From assembly GCA_902595805.1 (NCBI GenBank), contig CACJRM010000001.1:99806-163805 (forward strand): 64,000 nucleotides of DNA, written 5' to 3'. The notes under the pieces are model-generated. The model searched no databases. It saw only the letters and a program-made list of their open reading frames with translations, and had not been told where the DNA came from. The DNA is from an uncultured Alphaproteobacteria bacterium (lineage in GTDB: Bacteria > Pseudomonadota > Alphaproteobacteria > HIMB59 > GCA-002718135). Below, one piece after another: positions 1-12,115 of the stretch. Both the position numbers and the translations under genes were made by a program. The first letter of the stretch is position 1, and each line of letters opens with the position of its first letter.

Positions 1-957
1 CAACGAAATAGAACTTTCGCAGTTATATTTTATTCTGGGCAGGGTACGGGTAAGAATATGTTCTTTAGTATCTTAAAAAGATTGTATGGCGCCTCTAATT
101 GTTCTTTTTTACGACTAGACCAGCTACTCGATAAGTTTCAACCCTTTATGTTAAGCTCTAATTATCTTTTCATAAGTGAAATCGATAGCACCGGTAAAGA
201 CATAAAGAGCAAACAAGCTAAACTGAGAGAGTTAATTTCAGATACAGATTTTATGGTCGAGATGAAAGGTGTCGATCTTATTCCTGTAACGAACTGTCAT
301 TATACAATCTGGGGAAGCACTAATGAACCTTACCCGTTATCTCTTCCGGGTGATGATCGTAGGACTATGTTTATAGATATAGGCGTTACGAAATATGAAA
401 TACTACAAAAGGATAAAGATTATTTTAAAAAGCTAGTAACTTTTAGAAAAGATCCTTTGAATATTGCTAGTGTGTATCATTATTTTAAAAACGTACACGT
501 TATATCAAAAGAATTTGATCCTAACGAGCCACCGGTAACAACAGCTAAAGATGAATTAATTGAAGCCAGTAAGCCTCAGTATATGAAAACTTTAGATGAT
601 TTGTTTGAAGGAGAAAAAATCGTTAGCTTTAAAAGAGATATTGTTAACGCAAAACTAATAACGCAAGAATTAAAAGCCTTAGAAGATTTTTCTATTATGA
701 GAGAAAATTTTACTGAGAATAAAGTTCTACGTTGGATAAGATTTAATCCTAAGAATTTCAGAATTCTAAAAGGCGAACCTTATCAAATACCGGGTTCATT
801 GCGAGGACGTTGTTGGGTTATACGTAACCACCCGTTCTGGAACCAACACAAAACTAGTAAAGAGATGATCGACCTACACTTTGAGAAGAAAGTCGAGACA
901 CCTTTATTTAAACAAAAGGATATTTATGACGAACAAAAAGATCAAATCCCCTTCTAG
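1..957 (+). CDS. Superfamily-3 (D5 / P4-alpha type) primase-helicase, C-terminal part; 5' end truncated by the window edge
   Basis: The frame of ORF 58..957 stays open back to base 1 (QRNRTFAVIFYSGQGTGKN before the first Met). Walker A GQGTGKN, Walker B YLFISEID and motif C TIWGSTNE occur in SF3 order and spacing. Confidence 0.7.
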   Translation, partial: QRNRTFAVIFYSGQGTGKNMFFSILKRLYGASNCSFLRLDQLLDKFQPFMLSSNYLFISEIDSTGKDIKSKQAKLRELISDTDFMVEMKGVDLIPVTNCHYTIWGSTNEPYPLSLPGDDRRTMFIDIGVTKYEILQKDKDYFKKLVTFRKDPLNIASVYHYFKNVHVISKEFDPNEPPVTTAKDELIEASKPQYMKTLDDLFEGEKIVSFKRDIVNAKLITQELKALEDFSIMRENFTENKVLRWIRFNPKNFRILKGEPYQIPGSLRGRCWVIRNHPFWNQHKTSKEMIDLHFEKKVETPLFKQKDIYDEQKDQIPF

Positions 958-1204
958 TTTAGTAGATATAGATGATATCTTTGATATTTCACAAATCCCT
1001 CACTTATCAAGTGGGGGAGATACTAAACCAGCAAAAGAAAAAGCAGCAACCTTACCGGTATCCAAGACCGGCAAAGGGGTAAGTATTTCATTTGAAGAAG
1101 TTTTAATCCGTGATCTCGTTAACGCTCAAACTTATATTAAGCAAAACGGTCTTGAAGAGGATTTTAATAAGTTCACGAAAAAATATACTAAAAAAAAGTT
1201 ATAA
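926..1204 (+). CDS. hypothetical protein of the mobile-element module (start moved from 881 to ATG 926)
   Basis: ATG at 926 lies 5 nt after AAGGA (916-920) and overlaps the helicase stop (955-957), suggesting translational coupling. I recognise no domain. Confidence 0.45.
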   Translation: MTNKKIKSPSSLVDIDDIFDISQIPHLSSGGDTKPAKEKAATLPVSKTGKGVSISFEEVLIRDLVNAQTYIKQNGLEEDFNKFTKKYTKKKL

Positions 1205-1234
1205 ATTTTTTTATAATTTTTTTTTTGCATACCT

Positions 1235-1254
1235 CCCCTAATAACTTTTAGGGG
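1235..1254 (+). terminator. possible intrinsic terminator of the helicase operon
   Basis: Hairpin CCCCTAA(1235-1241)-N6-TTAGGGG(1248-1254) is followed by U-rich TGTATGTTTGTCT. The tail is weak. Confidence 0.3.
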
Positions 1255-1376
1255 GTGTATGTTTGTCTCGATCATAGTCTTTAGCCTATCTCTATACAAC
1301 GACCCCCAATTTATGTCTCCCCCGGGGTGGGTAAGGGTCTTCATTCTGCTTATTTAAAAAATCTAAGTACCTAAGT

Positions 1377-1541
1377 TTAGGACTCAATAGTTATATTGTT
1401 GAATATAAAATAAAGGACAGCTAGATATATTATGCCAGATATAATTCTGATAATTCTCTTATCTTTATAAGTTTTGAAAACAACAAATCCATAGGTTGAT
1501 GAAATTAAGAAAATACCTATAGCCAATACCCAAGGTTGCAT
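1377..1541 (-). CDS. small 54-aa protein with two hydrophobic segments (below the ORF-track cutoff)
   Basis: Hand translation gives MQPWVLAIGIFLISSTYGFVVFKTYKDKRIIRIISGIIYLAVLYFIFNNITIES, from ATG 1541..1539 to TAA 1379..1377. Two TM-like stretches are separated by a KDKR loop. There is no SD and I recognise no homology. Confidence 0.3.
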   Translation of the reverse strand: MQPWVLAIGIFLISSTYGFVVFKTYKDKRIIRIISGIIYLAVLYFIFNNITIES

Positions 1542-1584
1542 AATTTTAGTATAAATTAAAACGTTACAAAATAAAATAATTTAA

Positions 1585-1745
1585 GCGGACGGAGTCCGCC
1601 GGAGGCGGAACGGCGATATCTTGCCCTTTAAAAGGATTCAGGAATCTGTCAGCGAGTTTGTAGGGGTAGAGCTGAGGTATGGATTCAAGCCTCTCTACAA
1701 GAATCTTTATCCCTTGTTTATGGGACAATAAAGAATCAAATAGAG
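1585..1745. other. GC-rich, hairpin-dense segment: candidate structured RNA or protein-binding region, identity unknown
   Basis: 25 of 31 nt are G/C at 1585-1615. GCGGAC-GGA-GTCCGC (1585-1599) and TCCGCC-GGA-GGCGGA (1595-1609) share bases 1595-1599 and so exclude each other. A second hairpin is GTAGA..GAGG-N12-CCTC-TCTAC (1665-1698). Confidence 0.3.
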
Positions 1746-1751
1746 CTGTTT

Positions 1752-1783
1752 TTTCGAATCACTTTCGAATCAATTCGATCCAC
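1752..1783 (+). repeat. three tandem iteron-like units with ~11-bp period
   Basis: The units are TTTCGAATCAC (1752-1762), TTTCGAATCAA (1763-1773) and TTCGA-TCCAC (1774-1783). Confidence 0.75.
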
Positions 1784-1874
1784 TTTTTATATAAAATTAA
1801 TCCCATATGTGATAACTTGGACCTTGTAGATATTTGACTTAAACTAAGGATTTCGTTAAAGGGATCACGTATCT

Positions 1875-1949
1875 TGGGGCGTCGCCAAGCGGTAAGGCAC
1901 CGGTTTTTGGAGTCGGCATTCGTAGGTTCGAATCCTACCGCCCCAGCCA
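1875..1949 (+). tRNA. tRNA-Gln (anticodon UUG), CCA encoded
   Basis: Cloverleaf: acceptor TGGGGCG/CGCCCCA, D arm GCCAAGCGGTAAGGC, anticodon stem CCGGT/GTCGG with loop TTTTGGA, T arm GTAGG-TTCGAAT-CCTAC. It is close to the E. coli tRNA-Gln sequence. Confidence 0.95.
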
Positions 1950-4898: not shown

Positions 4899-5204
4899 AT
4901 GAATTTTAGACCTTTACATGACAGAGTTTTAGTCAAAAGAGTAGACTCTGATCAAAAAACGGCAGGGGGTATAATCATCCCTGACACTGCTCAAGAAAAA
5001 CCAATGGAAGGTGAGGTATTAGAAGTTGGTTCTGGAGCAAGAGATGAAACAGGAAAACTAGTACCTTTGGATGTCAAAAAAGGAGATAAAATACTTTTTG
5101 GAAAATGGTCTGGTACTGAGGTAAAAATGAATGGTGATGATTTTTTAATTATGAAAGAGTCTGACATCATGGGAATTATAACTTCAGGTAAAAAAAAGAA
5201 ATAG
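4899..5204 (+). CDS. groES: co-chaperonin GroES
   Basis: Full-length Cpn10 sequence ([20 protein letters not shown]). Confidence 0.97.
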
Positions 5205-5211
5205 TAATTAA

Positions 5212-6894
<1,683 letters not shown>

Positions 6895-6946: not shown

Positions 6947-7481
6947 AAATTAAACGATCGATCTGATTAGTAATTTTCGAACTATCTGGCTTTGTCATAG
7001 AAGACCAAGATTTAATAAGCTGTCCATTTCTATCAAATAAATATTTGTAAAAATTCCACTTTGGTTTTTCATTATACTCCTCCTCAATCCATGCATAAAT
7101 TGGATGAGTATTGCTTCCTTTTACATCCATTGGTGAAGAGGTAACAAAACCTACTCCATAATTAACTAAACAAATTTGTTTAATATCCTCGGTGTCTAAG
7201 TACTCTTGATTGAAAGAATTGCTTGTTGTAGCTATTATTGTTAAATCGCTATTTTTATAGTTCAAAAATAAATTTTGGAGATCAGCATACTGAGGAGTGA
7301 AACCACATCTAGAAGCTGTGTTCACTATTAAAATTGGCTTACCATCAAACTTCTCTAAATTTACCTGATTACCGTCTATATCTTCAAATGAAAAATCGTA
7401 TAAATTCACTGTCTCATTAGCTAATAATGTATTCTTTAAGTTAAGCATAATCAAAAAAACAAGTAAAAATATAAATTTCAT
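6945..7481 (-). CDS. glutathione peroxidase family protein (Cys type)
   Basis: NTASRCGFTPQY active-site motif and the WNFYKYL motif, with a signal peptide. Confidence 0.9.
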   Translation of the reverse strand: MKFIFLLVFLIMLNLKNTLLANETVNLYDFSFEDIDGNQVNLEKFDGKPILIVNTASRCGFTPQYADLQNLFLNYKNSDLTIIATTSNSFNQEYLDTEDIKQICLVNYGVGFVTSSPMDVKGSNTHPIYAWIEEEYNEKPKWNFYKYLFDRNGQLIKSWSSMTKPDSSKITNQIDRLI

Positions 7482-7507: not shown

Positions 7508-8644
7508 ATGGAAACATTCAATAGCTTTACAGACCTTTTTTTTGATGTTTGGAATAATGGTGTTTTTGGCATAAATGCTACAGATATCATAGTAAGCCTT
7601 GTAATTTTCCTTCTTTTTTATTTACTCAGAAGGCTTATAGCTAGATTTATTCTTAATCGATTATCAAGAATTGTTTCAAAAACTTCCAATCAAATTGATG
7701 ACGCTGTTATTGAAGTACTTGATGGGCCATTAAAATTTCTCCCTGTCGTTTTAGGTTTTTTTATAGCTTCTTCATATTTAGATGTTTCTGATAACAACCA
7801 AGATTTTTTAGATTTACTAAACAGATCATTAATTACAATTTTTATATTCTGGCTACTGCATCAATTGATTATACCATTTTCATTTGTAATAAAAAACTTT
7901 GAGTCAAAAATATCAAAACCTTTAGTTGATTGGACGCTTAAAGGTTTAAAAATTCTTGTTATTGTTCTTGGAGCAGTAGCAATTTTAGAATTGTGGGGAA
8001 TAAGAGTGGGACCAGTAATTGCAGGATTAGGTTTATTTGGTGTAGCCGTTGCACTGGGTGCTCAAGATTTATTTAAAAATTTAATTAGTGGTATCATGAT
8101 ACTAATGGAAAAGAGGTTTACTGTTGGTGATGTTATATTAGTTTCAGGTGAAGTAGAGGGAGTTGTTGAACAAATTGGATTTAGATCAACCCTTGTTAGA
8201 AGATTTGATTCAACCCCAGTAATGGTTCCAAATTATAAATTTGCAGAGCAGTCTGTAACTAATTACACAAGAAGACATCATAGACGTATAAGATGGCTAA
8301 TTGGATTAGAATATAGAACTAGTATTGATCAATTAAAAAATATCAGAGACGAGATAAATAATTTAATTGAAAAAGATGATAACTTTGCAAAAAATCAAAA
8401 TGCAAGTTTCTACGTTAGAATAGATAGTTTTTCTGATAGTTCTATCGATATGCTAGTACAAACATTTACTGTTACGAATGAATGGGCAGAATTTTTAAAA
8501 ATAAAAGAAAACCTTGCTGTCAAAATAATAGAAATAGTTGAAAATAATGAAGCTGGTTTTGCTTTTCCGAGTCAATCACTTTATGTTGAAAAATTATCAG
8601 ATGAAAAAACAGAAATTTTTAACCCCCAATCTACTAAGAAATAA
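7508..8644 (+). CDS. mechanosensitive ion channel (MscS family)
   Basis: TM helices followed by the conserved GAQDLFKNLISGIMILMEKRFTVGD pore/beta-domain junction. Confidence 0.85.
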   Translation: METFNSFTDLFFDVWNNGVFGINATDIIVSLVIFLLFYLLRRLIARFILNRLSRIVSKTSNQIDDAVIEVLDGPLKFLPVVLGFFIASSYLDVSDNNQDFLDLLNRSLITIFIFWLLHQLIIPFSFVIKNFESKISKPLVDWTLKGLKILVIVLGAVAILELWGIRVGPVIAGLGLFGVAVALGAQDLFKNLISGIMILMEKRFTVGDVILVSGEVEGVVEQIGFRSTLVRRFDSTPVMVPNYKFAEQSVTNYTRRHHRRIRWLIGLEYRTSIDQLKNIRDEINNLIEKDDNFAKNQNASFYVRIDSFSDSSIDMLVQTFTVTNEWAEFLKIKENLAVKIIEIVENNEAGFAFPSQSLYVEKLSDEKTEIFNPQSTKK

Positions 8645-10163: not shown

Positions 10164-10934
10164 ATGATTTACTATAATTATCTTTGTTTTCTTACATTAG
10201 TAAAAAAAGAAGTGTTTAGGTTCTTAAAAGTTGGAATACAAACTGTGATTGGACCAGCCATTAGTTCTTTATTATTTCTAGCTGTTTTTAGTCTAGCTCT
10301 TGGTAGATCTGTGAATTCTATAAATGGTATTGATCTTCCTTATTTTATTGCACCTGGTTTAATAATGATGACTATGCTTCAAAACTCTTTTGCCAATTCT
10401 GCATCAAGTATTGGTCAATCAAAATTTCAAGGTAATATTGTAGACATATTAATGGCCCCATTAAACAATGTTGAATTAGCATTCGGATTTATAATTGGTT
10501 CAGTTTGCAGGGGTGTTGTGTGCGGTATAGTAACAACTTTAGGAGTTATGATATTTGTACCTCTTCAGGTTCATTCTTATACGGCACTATTATTTTTCAC
10601 ATTAATGGGATGCATAATGATGGGAACTTTGGGTACAATTGTTGGCATTTGGGCGGACAAATGGGATCAACAACAAGGTATAACTAACTTTATTGTTTTA
10701 CCTCTTACTTTTTTATCAGGAACATTCTATTCAATTTCAAGACTTCCTGATTTTTGGCAGACAGTTTCCTCATTTAATCCATTCTTTTACAATATTGATG
10801 GCTTCAGATATGCTTTTACGGGTATTTCTGATAGCTCTTTAATTCATGGCTCAATATTCTTAATAATTATTAATATTATATTAATTTTAATATGCTATTT
10901 TATGTTCCTCAAAGGATATAAAATTAAATTTTAA
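10164..10934 (+). CDS. ABC-2 type transporter permease (YadH-like)
   Basis: Six-TM ABC-2 permease pattern. No ATPase gene is adjacent. Confidence 0.75.
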   Translation: MIYYNYLCFLTLVKKEVFRFLKVGIQTVIGPAISSLLFLAVFSLALGRSVNSINGIDLPYFIAPGLIMMTMLQNSFANSASSIGQSKFQGNIVDILMAPLNNVELAFGFIIGSVCRGVVCGIVTTLGVMIFVPLQVHSYTALLFFTLMGCIMMGTLGTIVGIWADKWDQQQGITNFIVLPLTFLSGTFYSISRLPDFWQTVSSFNPFFYNIDGFRYAFTGISDSSLIHGSIFLIIINIILILICYFMFLKGYKIKF

Positions 10935-10936
10935 AT

Positions 10937-12115
10937 ATGGTTAACAAACCCTTATCAAATGTTATGCCAACTTATGGCAATAAAACTCTTGAATTTGTCA
11001 AAGGAAAAGGATGTTATTTATACACTAGTCAAAACAAAAAATATTTAGATTTTGCAAGTGGAATAGCTGTAAACTCTCTTGGTCATTGCCATCCAAAACT
11101 AATAGAGGCACTGAATAAGCAATCGAAACAACTCTGGCATGTTTCAAACTTATATAAAATAAAAAAACAAGAACAATTTGCAAAATTACTTTGTAAAAAT
11201 TCTTTTGCAGACAAAGTATTTTTTACTAATTCTGGAACTGAGTCTATTGAATGTGGAATTAAAATAATCAGAGCATATCATTCATATCACAAGACAAAAA
11301 AAACAGAGATTATTACTTTTGATGGTGCCTTTCATGGAAGAACTTACGGTGCACTTTCAGCACAAAAAAATAAAAAATACTCTAATGGCTTTGGCCCTAT
11401 GCTTAGAGGCTTTAAACAAATTGAATTTAATAATAAAAAAAAATTAATATCTGCAGTAAATAAAAAAACAGCCGGTATTATTATTGAACCAATTCAAGGA
11501 GAAGGTGGTATTCGTCCTGCTAATCTAAGTTTTTTAAAACTATTAAGAGACATCTGTAATGAAAACAAAATTTTACTTTTTTTTGATGAAGTTCAATGCG
11601 GCTTTGGGAGATCTGGTAAATTATTCTCTCATGAATGGGCAAAAATAAAACCTGATATCATGTCTGTTGCAAAAGGTATAGGATCTGGTTTTCCACTTGG
11701 AGCTTGTATGTCAACAAACAATGCATGTATTGCAATGACTAAGGGTAGTCATGGATCAACCTATGGTGGTAATCCGTTAGCTATGAGTGTAGGTTTAGAA
11801 GTTTTAAAAGTTGTCTCTAATAAAACATTTCTTTCAAAGATTGATAAAAAAGCTAGATATTTTTGGAAAAATTTAAAAGAATTGGAGAATACATCTAATA
11901 TTATTTCAGAGGTTAGGGGTGCAGGACTTTTATTGGGTATCAAAACAAATATTAGCAATATAGATTTTGCTGAACAACTAAAAAAAAATAAATTACTAAA
12001 TGTACCTGCTGCAGATAATACAGTAAGATTAGCACCACCACTTATTGTATCTTATAAAGAGATTGATAAATCAATTTCAATAATTAAAAAGACTTTAATA
12101 GAACTGTCAAGATGA
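10937..12115 (+). CDS. argD: acetylornithine aminotransferase
   Basis: Class-III aminotransferase with the motifs FTNSGTES, DEVQCGFGRSGK and SVAKGIG (PLP lysine). It is adjacent to argF. Confidence 0.9.
   Translation: MVNKPLSNVMPTYGNKTLEFVKGKGCYLYTSQNKKYLDFASGIAVNSLGHCHPKLIEALNKQSKQLWHVSNLYKIKKQEQFAKLLCKNSFADKVFFTNSGTESIECGIKIIRAYHSYHKTKKTEIITFDGAFHGRTYGALSAQKNKKYSNGFGPMLRGFKQIEFNNKKKLISAVNKKTAGIIIEPIQGEGGIRPANLSFLKLLRDICNENKILLFFDEVQCGFGRSGKLFSHEWAKIKPDIMSVAKGIGSGFPLGACMSTNNACIAMTKGSHGSTYGGNPLAMSVGLEVLKVVSNKTFLSKIDKKARYFWKNLKELENTSNIISEVRGAGLLLGIKTNISNIDFAEQLKKNKLLNVPAADNTVRLAPPLIVSYKEIDKSISIIKKTLIELSR

What the first reader, a model, noticed from the sequence alone, without database searches (positions are those of the whole stretch)
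1592..1783. Eight GANTC sites in 180 bp plus 11-bp tandem TTTCGAATCA iterons just downstream of the helicase module
GANTC pentamers start at 1592 (GAGTC), 1635 (GATTC), 1642 (GAATC), 1682 (GATTC), 1701, 1733, 1756 and 1767 (all GAATC). With roughly 15% G, 15% C, 35% A and 35% T, the expectation is about 0.5 sites per 180 bp. Even at the locally higher GC it stays below one.

Several sites sit in repeated contexts:
- GGATTCARG occurs twice, at 1634 and 1681.
- Three tandem units have a one-helical-turn period: TTTCGAATCAC, TTTCGAATCAA and TTCGA-TCCAC (1752-1783).

GANTC is the target of the alphaproteobacterial cell-cycle methyltransferase CcrM, and GANTC clusters mark methylation-controlled promoters and the Caulobacter origin. 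Separately, satellite and plasmid origins are typically iteron arrays placed just 3' of the rep/helicase gene. This could be the replication origin of the element, a methylation-sensing switch that couples it to the host cell cycle, or both.
Basis: partly seen in the sequence, partly recalled or inferred. Interest (0 to 1): 0.6.

Follow-up and report, generated by a model that had tools for sequence, protein, structure and literature searches.

The report
Methylation-site array beside satellite attachment site
The pile-up of GANTC sites is real and marks one end of a small phage-satellite-like element inserted in a SAR11 tRNA-Gln gene: the "iterons" are the outer integrase-binding arm of its attachment site, and next to them lies a family-conserved array of the exact 5-base motif (GAWTC) that SAR11's cell-cycle-type methyltransferase is reported to methylate; what the array does is not yet known.

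Summary
Observation confirmed. There are 8 GANTC sites in 180 bp, against 0.35 expected from the window, and no shuffle gave more than 6.

The site is the integrase-distal end (attR) of a ~6-kb integrative element: tyrosine integrase, AlpA-like HTH, 691-aa primase-helicase. It belongs to the marine VEIME / PICI-like tycheposon class and sits in tRNA-Gln(UUG) of a SAR11-type genome. The element carries its own 5' half of the tRNA.

- **Tandem units.** The third unit (TTCGATCCAC) behaves as an integrase arm-type site. In relatives it co-varies with two copies just upstream of int.
- **GANTC array.** It is conserved across divergent relatives as GAWTC only: 84 GAWTC against 1 GASTC in 12 regions, and the most enriched recurrent pentamer at 19-fold. 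Flanks and positions turn over. GAWTC is the motif published as methylated in SAR11, and it is depleted in this host and in the element's own genes.
- **Not helicase-specific.** An Int-related lineage with a different helicase (AAA_25) has the same layout, but built from GASTC. This argues against helicase-specific iterons.

Best reading (about 0.4): a methylation-sensitive accessory array coupled to the attachment site. Rivals are a P4 crr-like origin region (0.25), a protein-only binding array, a promoter control region, and a pac site. The function is unproven.

The parts
1..957 (+). C-terminal 318 aa of a ~691-aa primase-helicase (DUF5906 / D5-like SF3 helicase); the gene starts left of the window
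   Evidence: Pfam DUF5906 E=7e-14 and PHROG DNA primase. The full-length 691-aa homologue in L043 is 90% identical. The AF2 model is poor, but residues ~217-275 show an H-H-H-beta-beta (winged-helix-like) topology; no significant fold match was found.
926..1204 (+). Conserved small ORF (92 aa) that follows the helicase gene in relatives
   Evidence: ORF list. An 87-88-aa homologue sits in the same position in L003 and L043. No Pfam or PHROG match.
1203..1226 (.). AT-rich palindromic block AAATTTTTTTATAATTTTTT just after the last ORF
   Evidence: Coordinates, inverted repeats. A similar block follows the last ORF in all satellite lineages seen.
1232..1255 (+). Terminator-like hairpin CCTCCCCTAA...TTAGGGGG
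   Evidence: Terminator scan. Conserved in L003.
1585..1608 (.). Two overlapping GC hairpins (GCGGAC-GGA-GTCCGC and CCGCC-GGA-GGCGG) with a C-GRA-G loop; contains GAGTC at 1592
   Evidence: Coordinates. A hairpin with the same loop and different stems sits at the equivalent place in relatives: 10 variants, 100% paired, 28 double changes. The examples were picked by eye, so selection bias applies.
1626..1646 (.). First conserved block of the array: CTTTAAAAGGATTCAGGAATC (GATTC-AG-GAATC inverted pair)
   Evidence: A TTTAAGATTCCAAATTT-like context marks the first site in most GAWTC-lineage relatives.
1635..1771 (.). GAWTC array: seven sites (1635, 1642, 1682, 1701, 1733, 1756, 1767)
   Evidence: GAATC/GATTC is the most enriched recurrent pentamer in 12 of 12 related regions: 77 observed against 4.0 expected.
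1728..1754 (.). Second conserved block ATAAAGAATCAAATAGAGCTGTTTTTT, directly before the tandem units
   Evidence: The core AAAGAATCAAATAGAGC, then GTTTTT (one variable base between them), is identical in all six aligned tRNA-Gln-type relatives, although the flanks diverge.
1752..1773 (.). Tandem units A1 and A2 (TTTCGAATCAC, TTTCGAATCAA): arm-like units with GAATC at their centre
   Evidence: In relatives these two units keep a GANTC whatever the sequence of the third unit (L043, L001, L003, L077, L083, L086, L090).
1774..1783 (.). Unit B (TTCGATCCAC): inferred integrase arm-type site (int-distal arm)
   Evidence: In L054, the circular form with an identical att region, the related motifs TTCGTCACAC and ACGGTCCAC lie just upstream of int. 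The same rule holds in L001, L002, L003, L043, L051, L058, L077 and L086.
1784..1803 (.). AT-rich stretch TTTTTATATAAAATTAATCC after the arm
   Evidence: A TTTATTATCCC-like stretch is present in relatives.
1834..1862 (+). Promoter-like TTGACT-N17-TAAAGG upstream of the tRNA (inferred; it failed the strict consensus scan)
   Evidence: Coordinates. TTGACTTA lies at the same distance from the tRNA start in empty-site genomes. The consensus scan found no sigma-70-type site.
1875..1949 (+). tRNA-Gln(UUG). The 5' part (1875 to about 1904) is inferred to be element-borne; the crossover region lies within 1904-1914 (TTTTTGGAGTC, anticodon loop/stem)
   Evidence: ARAGORN and Rfam. Circular forms L003, L043, L046, L054 and L078 carry the 5' half and diverge after GGAGTC. 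Integrated L077 has a displaced 5' half at attL and a full tRNA at attR. Homology to empty-site genomes starts at 1874.

Best explanation
**What it is (well supported).**
- Window 1-1914 is the right-hand part of a ~6-kb integrative, replicative element of the marine phage-satellite class (VEIME / PICI-like tycheposon). It is inserted in tRNA-Gln(UUG) of a SAR11-type bacterium.
- The element brings its own copy of the tRNA's 5' half and upstream region. An intact tRNA is therefore rebuilt at this end (attR).
- The three tandem 10-11-bp units are the outer, integrase-distal arm of the attachment site. Unit B (TTCGATCCAC) is an integrase arm-type site.
- The GANTC pile-up is a family-conserved array of GAWTC pentamers. 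It abuts that arm and runs into it: units A1 and A2 are arm-like units with GAATC at the centre.

**How it most likely works (inferred).**
- GAWTC is the motif that SMRT studies report as methylated in SAR11, and they attribute it to a CcrM-family adenine methyltransferase. The array would therefore exist in fully methylated, hemimethylated or unmethylated states. These depend on whether the DNA is resident, just replicated, or newly delivered or over-replicated.
- I propose that this state modulates binding at and next to the arm, by integrase, by its directionality factor, or by a host reader. It would thereby gate assembly of the recombination complex, and possibly the neighbouring replication start.
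- The analogy is with Dam-site clusters that gate IS10/Tn10 transposition, P1 pac cleavage and oriC.

**Shown:** identity, architecture, conservation, motif specificity, host depletion.

**Not shown:** methylation at these sites, any protein binding, and the output process.
For: **Element and att structure**
- Primase-helicase domains.
- Relatives carry int, an AlpA-like HTH, a CHC2 zinc-finger protein and a 691-aa primase-helicase.
- Concatemer contig with a 6105-bp period. Published VEIMEs of Pelagibacter are packaged as concatemers (PMC9618062).
- Circular attP forms carry the tRNA-Gln 5' half.
- A complete integrated copy at the same locus shows attL and attR as predicted (L077).
- Empty-site genomes match the window only from 1874 onward.

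**Arm-type sites**
- Unit B recurs twice upstream of int, and it differs between elements in step.
- Mini-islands at tRNA-Gln keep 2 + 3 such units.

**Array**
- 84 GAWTC against 1 GASTC in 12 regions, with weak flank preferences (T at -1 in 54%).
- 19-fold enrichment; 3 or more copies in 12 of 12 regions.
- Sites turn over while their number is kept.
- Orientation flips at homologous positions: GAATC in the window, GATTC in L003.
- GAWTC is depleted in the element's own genes (O/E 0.29-0.61 in 4 of 5 elements) and in the host (0.59-0.67).

**Methyltransferase**
- SAR11 CcrM homologues with GAWTC or GANTC specificity, with matching genome depletion.

**Link to the Int/att module rather than to a particular helicase**
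- The same layout occurs in lineages that share only Int (37-39% identity). One of them has an AAA_25 helicase.
Against: - No methylation data exist for these sites, and no ccrM gene lies in the window.
- The array extends 110-280 bp beyond the arm with up to 12 sites. That is more than known directionality-factor or arm regions need.
- Mini-islands keep the arms without any array. The array is therefore not needed for the arm structure itself, although those islands may be dead remnants.
- The tRNA-Phe-targeting lineage uses mainly GASTC (14 against 2 before the arm; one search lists GACTC/GAGTC as the only pentamer with 3 or more copies in all three regions). Its relatives sit in ~29-30% GC, Pelagibacter-like genomes. 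Most SAR11 are reported to leave GASTC unmethylated.
- That lineage is also not GANTC-depleted in its genes. This fits an element-encoded reader at least as well as a methylation sensor.
- Helical phasing of the sites is only weak (R = 0.30; 182 of 5000 random placements do as well).
Confidence: 0.4

Rival explanations
1. **Replication origin or P4 crr-like cis replication region.** The GAWTC pentamers are short iterons bound by the winged-helix-like C-terminal part of the primase-helicase, or by another initiator. The GC hairpin serves as a priming signal and the AT-rich stretch as the unwinding element. Methylation may add timing control, as at oriC or P1 oriR.
For: - It is the only iteron-like array in the element. 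The other non-coding stretches of a full unit show no comparable repeats.
- Its position, between the 3' end of the primase-helicase operon and att/int, matches my recollection of where crr lies in satellite P4. This is from memory and was not checked here.
- A covarying GC hairpin with a C-GRA-G loop lies 20-40 bp upstream.
- An AT-rich stretch follows.
- Mini-islands without replication genes lack the array.
- The helicase C-terminus has a conserved region with winged-helix-like secondary structure.
Against: - The motif does not co-vary with the helicase. It is the same GAWTC from 35% to 100% helicase identity.
- A GANTC array in the same place accompanies an unrelated AAA_25 helicase.
- The array always abuts the integrase arm, and GANTC is embedded in arm-like units.
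- A 5-bp quasi-palindrome with almost no flank conservation is short for a specific initiator site.
- There are no DnaA or CtrA boxes.
- The structure model is too poor to confirm an origin-binding domain.
Confidence: 0.25
2. **Binding array for an element-encoded protein, with methylation irrelevant.** The protein could be the recombination directionality factor, an AlpA-like protein or another small protein. It would form a filament next to the arm sites, as Xis or Cox proteins do. The match to the CcrM motif would be coincidental, or a by-product.
For: - Sites lie adjacent to the arm sites, with some 10-11, 19-21 and 29-31-bp spacings.
- The centre base is lineage-specific: W in the tRNA-Gln/Ser/Leu elements and S in the tRNA-Phe elements. 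This looks like coevolution with a protein.
- The S-lineage probably also lives in SAR11-like hosts.
Against: - No protein other than Int is detectably shared between the two lineages.
- In this AT-rich host the motif carries the same centre-base restriction (W) that is reported for most SAR11 CcrM homologues. Both lineage variants fall inside GANTC, which would be a double coincidence.
- Recognition is limited to 5 bp, orientation is free, and site number is very variable at 3-12.
- The element's genes avoid the motif as the host genome does, which suggests the motif has consequences in the cell.
Confidence: 0.15
3. **Upstream control region of the element-borne promoter.** In the integrated state this promoter drives the rebuilt tRNA-Gln. 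In the circular state it points through attP into int. The GAWTC sites would act as methylation-dependent activator or repressor sites.
For: - The element replaces the tRNA's 5' half and its whole upstream region, so it must supply a promoter. TTGACTTA lies at the same distance from the tRNA as in empty-site genomes.
- Those native upstream regions also carry one or two TTGAATCAAT units.
- In the S-lineage, two GATTC sites lie inside a promoter-like TTGAC-N17-TTCAAT sequence.
Against: - The array is also present in elements that carry the 3' part of the tRNA. In these the array is not upstream of a functional tRNA (L014, L083, L086).
- It lies 100-280 bp upstream of the promoter-like site.
- The consensus scan found no sigma-70-type promoter in 1150-2000.
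Confidence: 0.08
4. **Packaging (pac) site recognised by a helper phage terminase.** The analogy is the P1 pac site, whose seven Dam-site hexamers make cleavage depend on methylation. Such control would keep most copies in a concatemer uncut.
For: - Relatives occur as concatemer contigs in viral-fraction data. VEIMEs are reported to be packaged as concatemers.
- No terminase gene was seen in the element.
- HTVC010P has three GGACTC sites within 45 bp upstream of terL.
Against: - The HTVC010P triplet is not conserved in five other HTVC010P-type pelagiphages.
- HTVC019P and HTVC011P almost lack GANTC, with 6 and 1 sites.
- No phage in the collection matches the region.
- Constant adjacency to the att arm is not expected for a pac site.
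Confidence: 0.07

Closest known systems
Virion-encapsidated integrative mobile elements (VEIMEs) of Pelagibacter (Eppley et al. 2022, PMC9618062) and PICI-like tycheposons (Hackl et al., bioRxiv 2020.12.28.424599)
   Same: - About 6 kb, with a tyrosine integrase and a primase/helicase replication module, and no capsid genes.
- Integration at tRNA genes, leaving partial tRNA repeats.
- Concatemeric forms in viral-fraction data.
- SAR11 hosts.
   Different: - In the passages I searched (for the VEIME paper, for the tycheposon preprint), neither paper mentions a GANTC/GAWTC array, att arm sites, or replacement of the tRNA's 5' half. The VEIME main text has no occurrence of 'tRNA' or 'origin of replication'.
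- Literature searches for GAWTC, or for GANTC with 'satellite', found nothing on this.
- Encapsidation of this particular element was not tested.
Phage lambda-type attP with arm-type integrase sites (three tandem P' sites; Xis, IHF and Fis sites in the P arm). From general knowledge.
   Same: - Short direct repeats about 10-11 bp apart, lying about 125-160 bp from the crossover on one side and about 70-90 bp on the other.
- The repeats are the same on both sides and specific to each integrase.
   Different: - The crossover lies in the anticodon loop/stem of a tRNA, and the element supplies the 5' half.
- Two of the three distal units carry a methyltransferase target at their centre.
- A further 5-10 copies of that target extend outward. 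No lambda-type site is known to have such an array.
Dam-site clusters in cis-acting DNA: E. coli oriC (11 GATC in 245 bp, SeqA sequestration), P1 oriR, the P1 pac site (7 TGATCA/G hexamers), IS10/Tn10 ends. From general knowledge.
   Same: - Strong local over-representation of the host orphan adenine-methyltransferase target.
- The surrounding genome shows no such clusters.
- The location is a cis-acting region of a replicon or mobile element.
   Different: - The motif is a CcrM-family target (GAWTC), not GATC.
- The host is an alphaproteobacterium, where no SeqA is known.
- The output process is unknown.
- No experimental methylation dependence has been shown.
Caulobacter Cori and CcrM/GcrA-controlled promoters (PMC3973325, PMC7987155)
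   Same: - GANTC sites in regulatory DNA of an alphaproteobacterium.
- GANTC is under-represented genome-wide.
   Different: - Those sites number one to five and lie in promoters or the chromosomal origin.
- Here 5-12 sites lie in a mobile element's att-proximal region.
- No promoter-like site lies within the array, and no DnaA or CtrA boxes are present.
Satellite P4 ori/crr (alpha-protein octamer iterons) and SaPI ori (iterons 3' of rep). From general knowledge.
   Same: - A satellite with an alpha-like primase-helicase.
- A repeated short motif in both orientations, in non-coding DNA between the replication operon and att/int.
   Different: - P4 and SaPI iterons are specific to their initiator.
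- Here the motif stays constant across very divergent helicases, and a GANTC array also accompanies an unrelated helicase family.

Membership tests
Marine phage satellite / VEIME / PICI-like tycheposon (identity of the element) | Small integrative element with an integrase plus its own replication module and no virion structural genes | tested here: met
   The window holds only the primase-helicase 3' end and one small ORF. Complete relatives (L043 unit of 6105 bp, L001, L078, L014, L077) encode int, small HTH proteins, a CHC2 zinc-finger protein and a primase-helicase. No capsid or terminase domains were found.
Marine phage satellite / VEIME / PICI-like tycheposon (identity of the element) | Site-specific integration at a tRNA gene, flanked by full and partial tRNA copies | tested here: met
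   L077 shows a displaced 5' half at attL and a full tRNA-Gln at attR. attP forms carry the 5' half. Homology to empty sites starts at the tRNA.
Marine phage satellite / VEIME / PICI-like tycheposon (identity of the element) | Packaged as concatemers in helper-phage capsids; dependence on a helper | not testable with these tools
   Concatemer contigs of relatives exist. This fits the published description but does not prove encapsidation or helper dependence for this element.
Tyrosine-integrase attachment site with arm-type sites | The same short repeat lies on both sides of the crossover region and co-varies with the integrase or element | tested here: met
   Distal unit B against the two int-proximal copies, in nine element types.
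Tyrosine-integrase attachment site with arm-type sites | Binding of the integrase N-terminal domain to the repeats | not testable with these tools
   Needs EMSA or footprinting.
Iteron-type replication origin (P4 ori/crr, SaPI ori, plasmid iterons) | Repeats are specific to, and co-vary with, the element's initiator or helicase | tested here: not met
   GAWTC is unchanged across 35-100% helicase identity. A GANTC array is also present with an AAA_25 helicase.
Iteron-type replication origin (P4 ori/crr, SaPI ori, plasmid iterons) | Adjacent AT-rich unwinding element, and supports autonomous replication | tested here: inconclusive
   A 20-bp AT-rich stretch at 1784-1803 and an AT-rich region at 1540-1583 exist. 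Replication activity cannot be tested here.
Methyltransferase-target cluster acting as an epigenetic cis-element (oriC/SeqA, P1 pac, IS10 type) | Significant local excess of the target of a methyltransferase present in the host | tested here: met
   Excess. Host methyltransferase: not in the window, but SAR11 GAWTC/GANTC methylation and CcrM homologues are reported. The host sequence shows the matching GAWTC-only depletion.
Methyltransferase-target cluster acting as an epigenetic cis-element (oriC/SeqA, P1 pac, IS10 type) | The sites are methylated in vivo, and function depends on their methylation state | not testable with these tools
   No methylation calls or functional assays are available. 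The GASTC-based sister lineage raises doubt.
CcrM/GcrA-regulated promoter | GANTC within or next to the -35/-10 elements of a promoter | tested here: not met
   No sigma-70-type site was found in 1150-2000. The promoter-like TTGACT-N17-TAAAGG at 1834-1862 has no GANTC. S-lineage elements do have GATTC in a promoter-like site.
Structured non-coding RNA or small protein gene | Match to a known RNA family, conserved secondary structure, or a conserved ORF | tested here: not met
   No Rfam match, even at E <= 10, beyond noise. RNAalifold gave -14.5 kcal/mol with a positive covariation term, and pairs are broken in divergent members. The ORFs at 1564-1728(-) and 1679-1837(+) have no family match, and no reading frame is evident in divergent relatives (by eye).

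The most novel reading that the evidence does not exclude
The array is an epigenetic sensor. Through it, an abundant class of ocean phage satellites reads the state of the host's CcrM-type, cell-cycle-linked adenine methylation: full, hemi or none. This tells the element whether its DNA is resident, freshly replicated or newly injected. It uses that reading to gate integration and excision, and perhaps replication or packaging.

The centre base of the motif would then track the specificity of the methyltransferase the element meets: W in most SAR11 elements and S in a sister lineage.

[quoted passage not shown] In that version, bound methyltransferase molecules themselves pre-melt the region.
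Probability: 0.25. Interest if true: 0.8.

Novelty: new variant of a known kind. Interest (0 to 1): 0.6.

Why it matters
SAR11 is reported as the most abundant bacterial group in the ocean, and small satellites of this class are reported to be common in its genomes and in marine virus particles. How they decide to integrate, excise, replicate and get packaged is unknown.

A conserved array of the host's methyltransferase target, fused to the attachment site, gives a concrete and testable handle on that control. Existing native-DNA long-read data from virus particles and cells could show directly whether the array differs in methylation between the resident and the packaged state.

If it does, this would extend the Dam-type logic of oriC, P1 pac and IS10 to the CcrM family and to phage satellites. 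It would also link a mobile element's life cycle to the host cell cycle in a genome-streamlined organism with very few regulators.

Independently of function, the work gives three things:
- exact ends and att architecture for this element family;
- two alternative ways of repairing the target tRNA (5' half or 3' part);
- a simple sequence signature for finding such elements: GC hairpin, GANTC array, tandem arm units, then the tRNA part.

Tried and rejected
- **Known RNA family.** Rfam at gathering and at E <= 10 found only the two tRNAs plus noise.
- **Conserved RNA structure across the array.** RNAalifold gave weak energy and a positive covariation term, with pairs broken in divergent members. 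Only the upstream GC hairpin covaries.
- **Small ORFs.** The ORFs at 1377-1541(-), 1564-1728(-) and 1679-1837(+) have no Pfam or PHROG match. The 1377-1541 segment is absent from close relatives.
- **DnaA, Caulobacter G-box and CtrA boxes in 1200-1900.** No DnaA-type box within one mismatch and no exact TTAA-N7-TTAA. The GATCCAC in unit B varies between elements, so it is not a DnaA box.
- **Helicase-specific iterons.** Rejected by comparison across helicase families. The other non-coding stretches of a full unit have no repeat arrays.
- **Helical phasing.** Only weak, so it is not used as an argument.
- **Origin-binding domain.** The AF2 model has pLDDT 43, and Foldseek against PDB gave nothing below E = 0.4; the top hits are winged-helix proteins. 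A PDB sequence search matched only a phage primase.
- **Helper pac mimicry.**
  - No phage DNA matches the region.
  - The GGACTC triplet upstream of HTVC010P terL is not conserved in five relatives.
  - HTVC019P and HTVC011P nearly lack GANTC.
- **IMG/VR viral contigs.** No relatives of the helicase, and only two distant integrase relatives.
- **Does the centre base (W or S) follow host methyltransferase specificity?** Unresolved.
  - All ten contexts returned for the S-lineage integrase were circular or concatemeric.
  - Relatives with host flanks sit in ~29-30% GC genomes, and one cluster member is labelled Candidatus Pelagibacter sp..
  - The flanks are too short to measure GASTC depletion.
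- **Integrase-positive, helicase-negative elements.** I looked for elements with a visible distal arm, to separate linkage to the Int module from linkage to the replication module. None was captured.
Full report
**1. Observation**

The eight GANTC sites are at the stated positions.
- GANTC is under-represented in the window as a whole: 126 sites against 184 +/- 13 in dinucleotide shuffles. A cluster is therefore all the more unusual.
- The window-wide rate predicts 0.35 sites per 180 bp. Local composition predicts 0.62. Local dinucleotide shuffles give a mean of 1.27 and never more than 6 in 5000.
- No whole-window shuffle produced a cluster above 5, and the next real cluster in the window has 4 sites.
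- The repeated GGATTCARG and the three tandem units are present.
- Seven of the eight sites are GAWTC.

**2. Context in the window**

- Positions 1-957 encode the C-terminal 318 residues of a DUF5906 / D5-type primase-helicase. A conserved 92-aa ORF follows (926-1204).
- The 670-bp non-coding stretch then contains, in order:
  - an AT-rich palindrome (1203-1226);
  - a terminator-like hairpin (1232-1255);
  - a G-rich tract;
  - a window-specific segment with a non-conserved 54-aa ORF;
  - two overlapping GC hairpins (1585-1608);
  - the GAWTC array (1635-1771);
  - the tandem units (1752-1783);
  - an AT-rich stretch.
- After that come tRNA-Gln(UUG) at 1875-1949, an SH3-domain gene on the minus strand, and tRNA-Arg.
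- G+C is about 35% left of the tRNA and 20-30% to its right.

**3. What the element is**

- The SH3 gene recovers 38 loci from marine single-cell and metagenome-assembled genomes labelled uncultured Alphaproteobacteria, at about 29% G+C. Most match the window only from position 1874, the first base of the tRNA, rightwards.
- The helicase has relatives only in marine metagenomes. Phage records gave only distant matches (24-28% identity) and IMG/VR none.
- Complete relatives are about 6-7-kb units. They encode a 335-aa tyrosine integrase, small HTH proteins, a CHC2 zinc-finger protein, a 691-aa primase-helicase and one to three small ORFs.
- One 20.8-kb contig is a head-to-tail concatemer with a 6105-bp period.
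- This matches the published virion-encapsidated integrative mobile elements of Pelagibacter, which are packaged as concatemers (PMC9618062). It also matches PICI-like tycheposons.

**4. The attachment site**

- Contigs in the circular (attP) configuration read, in order: array, tandem units, about 90 nt, the 5' half of tRNA-Gln ending at GGAGTC, non-tRNA sequence, two copies of a short repeat, then the int start codon (L003, L043, L046, L054, L078). L054 matches the window almost base for base from about 1630 to 1914 (a few substitutions), although its helicase is only 62% identical.
- A 122-kb genomic contig (L077) carries a complete integrated copy at the same locus. At the left end is a displaced 5' half of tRNA-Gln followed by the two repeats and int. 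At the right end are the array, the tandem units and a full tRNA-Gln.
- The crossover therefore lies in the anticodon loop/stem (window 1904-1914). The element supplies the tRNA's 5' half and upstream region.
- Other members carry the 3' part of the tRNA instead (L014, L083, L086, L090, L092). These leave the full tRNA next to int.

**5. The tandem units**

The third unit matches the two int-proximal repeats in every element type, and it differs between types:

| Element | Distal third unit | Int-proximal repeats |
|---|---|---|
| window / L054 | TTCGATCCAC | TTCGTCACAC, ACGGTCCAC |
| L043 | TTCGCCACAC | TTCGCCACAC, ACGGCACAC |
| L001 | TTGGCACAC | TTGGCACAC, ATGGCACAC |
| L003 | TTGGTCTCAC | TTGGTCTCAC, TAGGTCTCAC |
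| L002 | TCGCGACAC | CTCGCGACAC, CGCGACAC |

The same rule holds for L051, L058, L077 and L086.

- The distances from the crossover are about -125 to -160 on one side and +70 to +90 on the other. These resemble a lambda-type attP (general knowledge).
- Small cargo islands at tRNA-Gln in other SAR11 genomes lack both int and helicase. They still keep two repeats at one end and three tandem repeats at the other (for example TTTGGCTACAA TTTGGCTACAC TTACAAGGTCAC), with no GANTC.
- I conclude that the units are the integrase-distal arm. In the satellites, the outer one or two units have a GANTC at their centre.

**6. The array is a family character, and it is GAWTC**

- In 12 array regions from different elements (2187 bp) there are 84 GAWTC and 1 GASTC.
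- Flanks are weakly biased: T at -1 in 54% of sites and few G at +1.
- Neighbour spacings peak at 7, 10-11, 19-21 and 29-31 bp. The phasing statistic is only marginal: R = 0.30, and 182 of 5000 random placements do as well.
- An unbiased count finds GAATC/GATTC to be the top recurrent pentamer. It has 77 copies against 4.0 expected from element background, and 3 or more copies in 12 of 12 regions.
- Site number ranges from 3-4 (L052, L057, L014) to 12 (L001).
- Between relatives, sites move, are replaced and flip orientation, while the count is roughly kept.
- Two blocks are conserved. The first site lies in a TTTAAGATTCCAAATTT-like context. The last pre-arm site lies in AAAGAATCAAATAGAGC followed by GTTTTT, and both stretches are identical in six aligned relatives.
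- Outside the array, the elements avoid the motif as their hosts do. Coding parts have GAWTC O/E of 0.29-0.61 in four of five elements. The host part of the window is at 0.59 and pooled SAR11 loci at 0.67. GASTC stays near 0.9-1.0.

**7. The methyltransferase link**

- The window has no ccrM-like gene: no ORF of 150 aa or more has a DPPY-type motif in a methyltransferase-like context.
- Published SMRT metaepigenomics reports CcrM homologues in SAR11 with GAWTC specificity, and GANTC specificity in some lineages. GASTC is almost unmethylated where GAWTC is the target. SAR11 genomes show selective depletion of GAWTC, and one SAR11 MAG lacks the system (PMC8919816).
- A second study reports 71-95% methylation of GANTC in a Pelagibacter MAG, an origin-to-terminus gradient, and GANTC depletion in about half of pelagiphages (PMC9516812).
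- The array is thus built from exactly the motif variant reported as methylated in most SAR11. A 5-bp quasi-palindrome with free orientation and almost no flank information fits a methyltransferase-type recognition unit better than a typical repeat for a sequence-specific binding protein. This last point is inference.

**8. Test of the origin/iteron idea**

- GAWTC is unchanged across helicases from 100% down to 35% identity.
- Integrase relatives at 37-40% identity define a sister group that targets tRNA-Phe. Its members are also 6-7-kb concatemer-forming units. They share only Int with the window's family, and one type has an AAA_25 helicase instead of DUF5906.
- They have the same layout: hairpins, a GANTC cluster, two GANTC-bearing units, one arm-type unit, a promoter-like site, the tRNA part, two arm repeats, then int. 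But the cluster is mainly GAGTC/GACTC: 14 GASTC against 2 GAWTC before the arm in three types. GACTC is the only pentamer with 3 or more copies in all three regions (11-fold).
- The array therefore travels with the Int/att architecture and not with one helicase family. This speaks against helicase-specific iterons.
- It does not exclude an origin defined by a host factor or by methylation.
- Points in favour of a replication role:
  - there is no other repeat array in the element;
  - a GC hairpin with an invariant C-GRA-G loop and freely covarying stems lies 20-40 bp upstream (examples chosen by eye);
  - an AT-rich stretch lies beyond the arm;
  - the array is absent from islands without replication genes;
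  - the position is analogous to P4 crr (from memory).

**9. What weakens the methylation reading**

- Relatives of the GASTC lineage with host flanks lie in 29-30% G+C genomes next to infA and tRNA-Phe. One cluster member is labelled Candidatus Pelagibacter sp.. These elements probably also live in SAR11-like cells, where GASTC is mostly reported as unmethylated.
- Their genes are not depleted in GANTC (O/E 1.0-1.8).
- One explanation is that their hosts belong to lineages with GANTC-type enzymes. I could not resolve this: every context returned for the S-lineage integrase was circular or concatemeric.

**10. Other alternatives**

- **RNA.** No known RNA family and no conserved RNA structure were found.
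- **ORFs and boxes.** No conserved ORF. No DnaA or CtrA boxes.
- **Promoter control.**
  - For: the element must supply the tRNA promoter. TTGACTTA lies at the native distance. Native upstream regions of empty-site genomes even carry one or two TTGAATCAAT units followed by CTGATCAC.
  - Against: the array is also present where it is not upstream of a functional tRNA.
- **Pac mimicry.** No phage DNA matches the region. The GGACTC triplet upstream of HTVC010P terL is not conserved in five relatives. HTVC019P and HTVC011P have only 6 and 1 GANTC in 42 and 39 kb.

**11. Verdict**

- The "iterons" are best explained as the integrase-distal arm of attR of a SAR11 satellite-type element.
- The GANTC pile-up is a conserved GAWTC array fused to that arm.
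- Identity and architecture: about 0.85 or higher.
- That methylation of the array by the host CcrM-type enzyme matters for its function: about 0.55.
- That the controlled process is recombination at the att site rather than replication, transcription or packaging: a lean, not a result. Overall this specific mechanism stands at about 0.4, and the origin/crr-like reading at 0.25.
- I found no description of such an array in the searchable literature.
- It is a new variant of a known principle, namely methyltransferase-target clusters in cis-acting DNA of mobile elements and origins, placed in an ecologically dominant host. It is directly testable with existing native-DNA long-read data.

Noticed in passing
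window 1585-1608; L003 ~1609-1621, L054 ~5864-5878, L014 (reverse strand) ~10930-10944, L002 ~7796-7812, L061 ~1732-1750: A GC-rich hairpin lies 20-40 bp upstream of the first GAWTC. Its C-GRA-G loop is invariant (GGA or GAA) and its stems covary freely: 10 variants, 100% paired, 28 double changes. It lacks a consistent T-run on either strand. It resembles the very stable d(GCGAAGC)-type DNA mini-hairpin, so it might be a priming or single-strand signal rather than a terminator. The examples were picked by eye.
   Followed up: partly
window 1203-1226; also L001 ~625-650, L002 ~7568-7590, L078 ~4997-5020, L086 ~6400-6425, L090 ~8440-8460: An AT-rich palindromic block (AATTTTTATAAAATTTTTT-like) follows the stop codon of the last ORF. 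It is conserved even between satellite lineages that share only the integrase. Its function is unknown; a promoter, an unwinding element or a packaging signal are all possible.
   Followed up: no
window 1364-1375; L052 ~9440, L057 ~5975, L059 ~3800, L078 ~5180: The motif TTAAGTACCTAA(C/G) recurs in the non-coding region of most family members, between the G-rich tract and the GC hairpin.
   Followed up: no
window 1319-1339; L003 ~1462-1503, L014 (reverse strand) ~11120-11150, L001 ~735-750: A G-run tract (GGGG T GGG TAA GGG in the window) is conserved as runs of G in relatives. It might form a G-quadruplex.
   Followed up: no
L004, L005, L009, L016: the ~190 bp upstream of tRNA-Gln (locus coordinates about 10712-10900; 8086-8270 in L009): 'Empty-site' SAR11 genomes carry, upstream of tRNA-Gln, one or two tandem TTGAATCAAT units followed by CTGATCAC. 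They also have the same TTGACTTA box at the same distance from the tRNA as the element copy (window 1834-1841). Either the element's tRNA-proximal region is a diverged copy of host DNA, or the host region is a fossil of a satellite end.
   Followed up: partly
window 1834-1914; L054 ~6110-6290; L043 ~7230-7400: In the circular form, the element-borne tRNA promoter-like site and the 5' tRNA half point through the crossover region into int. Integrase might therefore be transcribed strongly only from the excised or incoming circle. This is inference.
   Followed up: no
L086 6660-6800, L090 8630-8790, L092 2690-2860: A sister lineage of 6-7-kb concatemer-forming elements targets tRNA-Phe. Its Int is 37-40% identical, and one type has an AAA_25 helicase. 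It has the same att-proximal layout, but its cluster is made of GAGTC/GACTC. GANTC is not depleted in its genes and is often enriched (O/E 1.0-1.8).
   Followed up: partly
L118 (HTVC019P, 42 kb) and L119 (HTVC011P, 39 kb): These two T7-like temperate pelagiphages almost lack GANTC. They have 6 and 1 sites against roughly 127 and 112 expected, and no GASTC at all. This fits the published GANTC depletion in some pelagiphages and is the opposite of what the satellites do.
   Followed up: partly
L117 (HTVC010P) 620-664: Three GGACTC sites lie within 45 bp in the non-coding region upstream of gp01 and terL. The triplet is degenerate or absent in five other HTVC010P-type phages (L120-L124, and L125 as far as it is covered).
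   Followed up: yes
L007, L008, L017, L021, L024, L025, L029, L034, L035, L039: between the two tRNA-Gln copies: The tRNA-Gln locus is an insertion hotspot. Islands of 0.5-3.4 kb carry cargo genes, for example a 217-aa ORF that I read as a methyltransferase (no domain search run) and a 928-aa helicase/restriction-like protein in L025. They are flanked by integrase arm-type repeats but have no integrase of their own.
   Followed up: partly
window 1377-1541 (- strand): A 54-aa hydrophobic ORF lies in a ~170-bp segment that is absent from the closest relatives (L003, L043). It may be a small insertion specific to this copy.
   Followed up: no
L051 200-700 and 7360-7950: One 10-kb contig carries two different complete attP-type junctions. 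One has a tRNA-Leu(CAA)-like part, and each has its own matching arm repeats and GAWTC array. This suggests a tandem or co-integrate of two different satellites, or an assembly chimera.
   Followed up: no
L123 (HTVC100P) 481-672: An HTVC010P-type pelagiphage is annotated with a short 'DNA N-6-adenine-methyltransferase' ORF just upstream of its terminase region. This would be relevant if helper phages change the methylation state.
   Followed up: no
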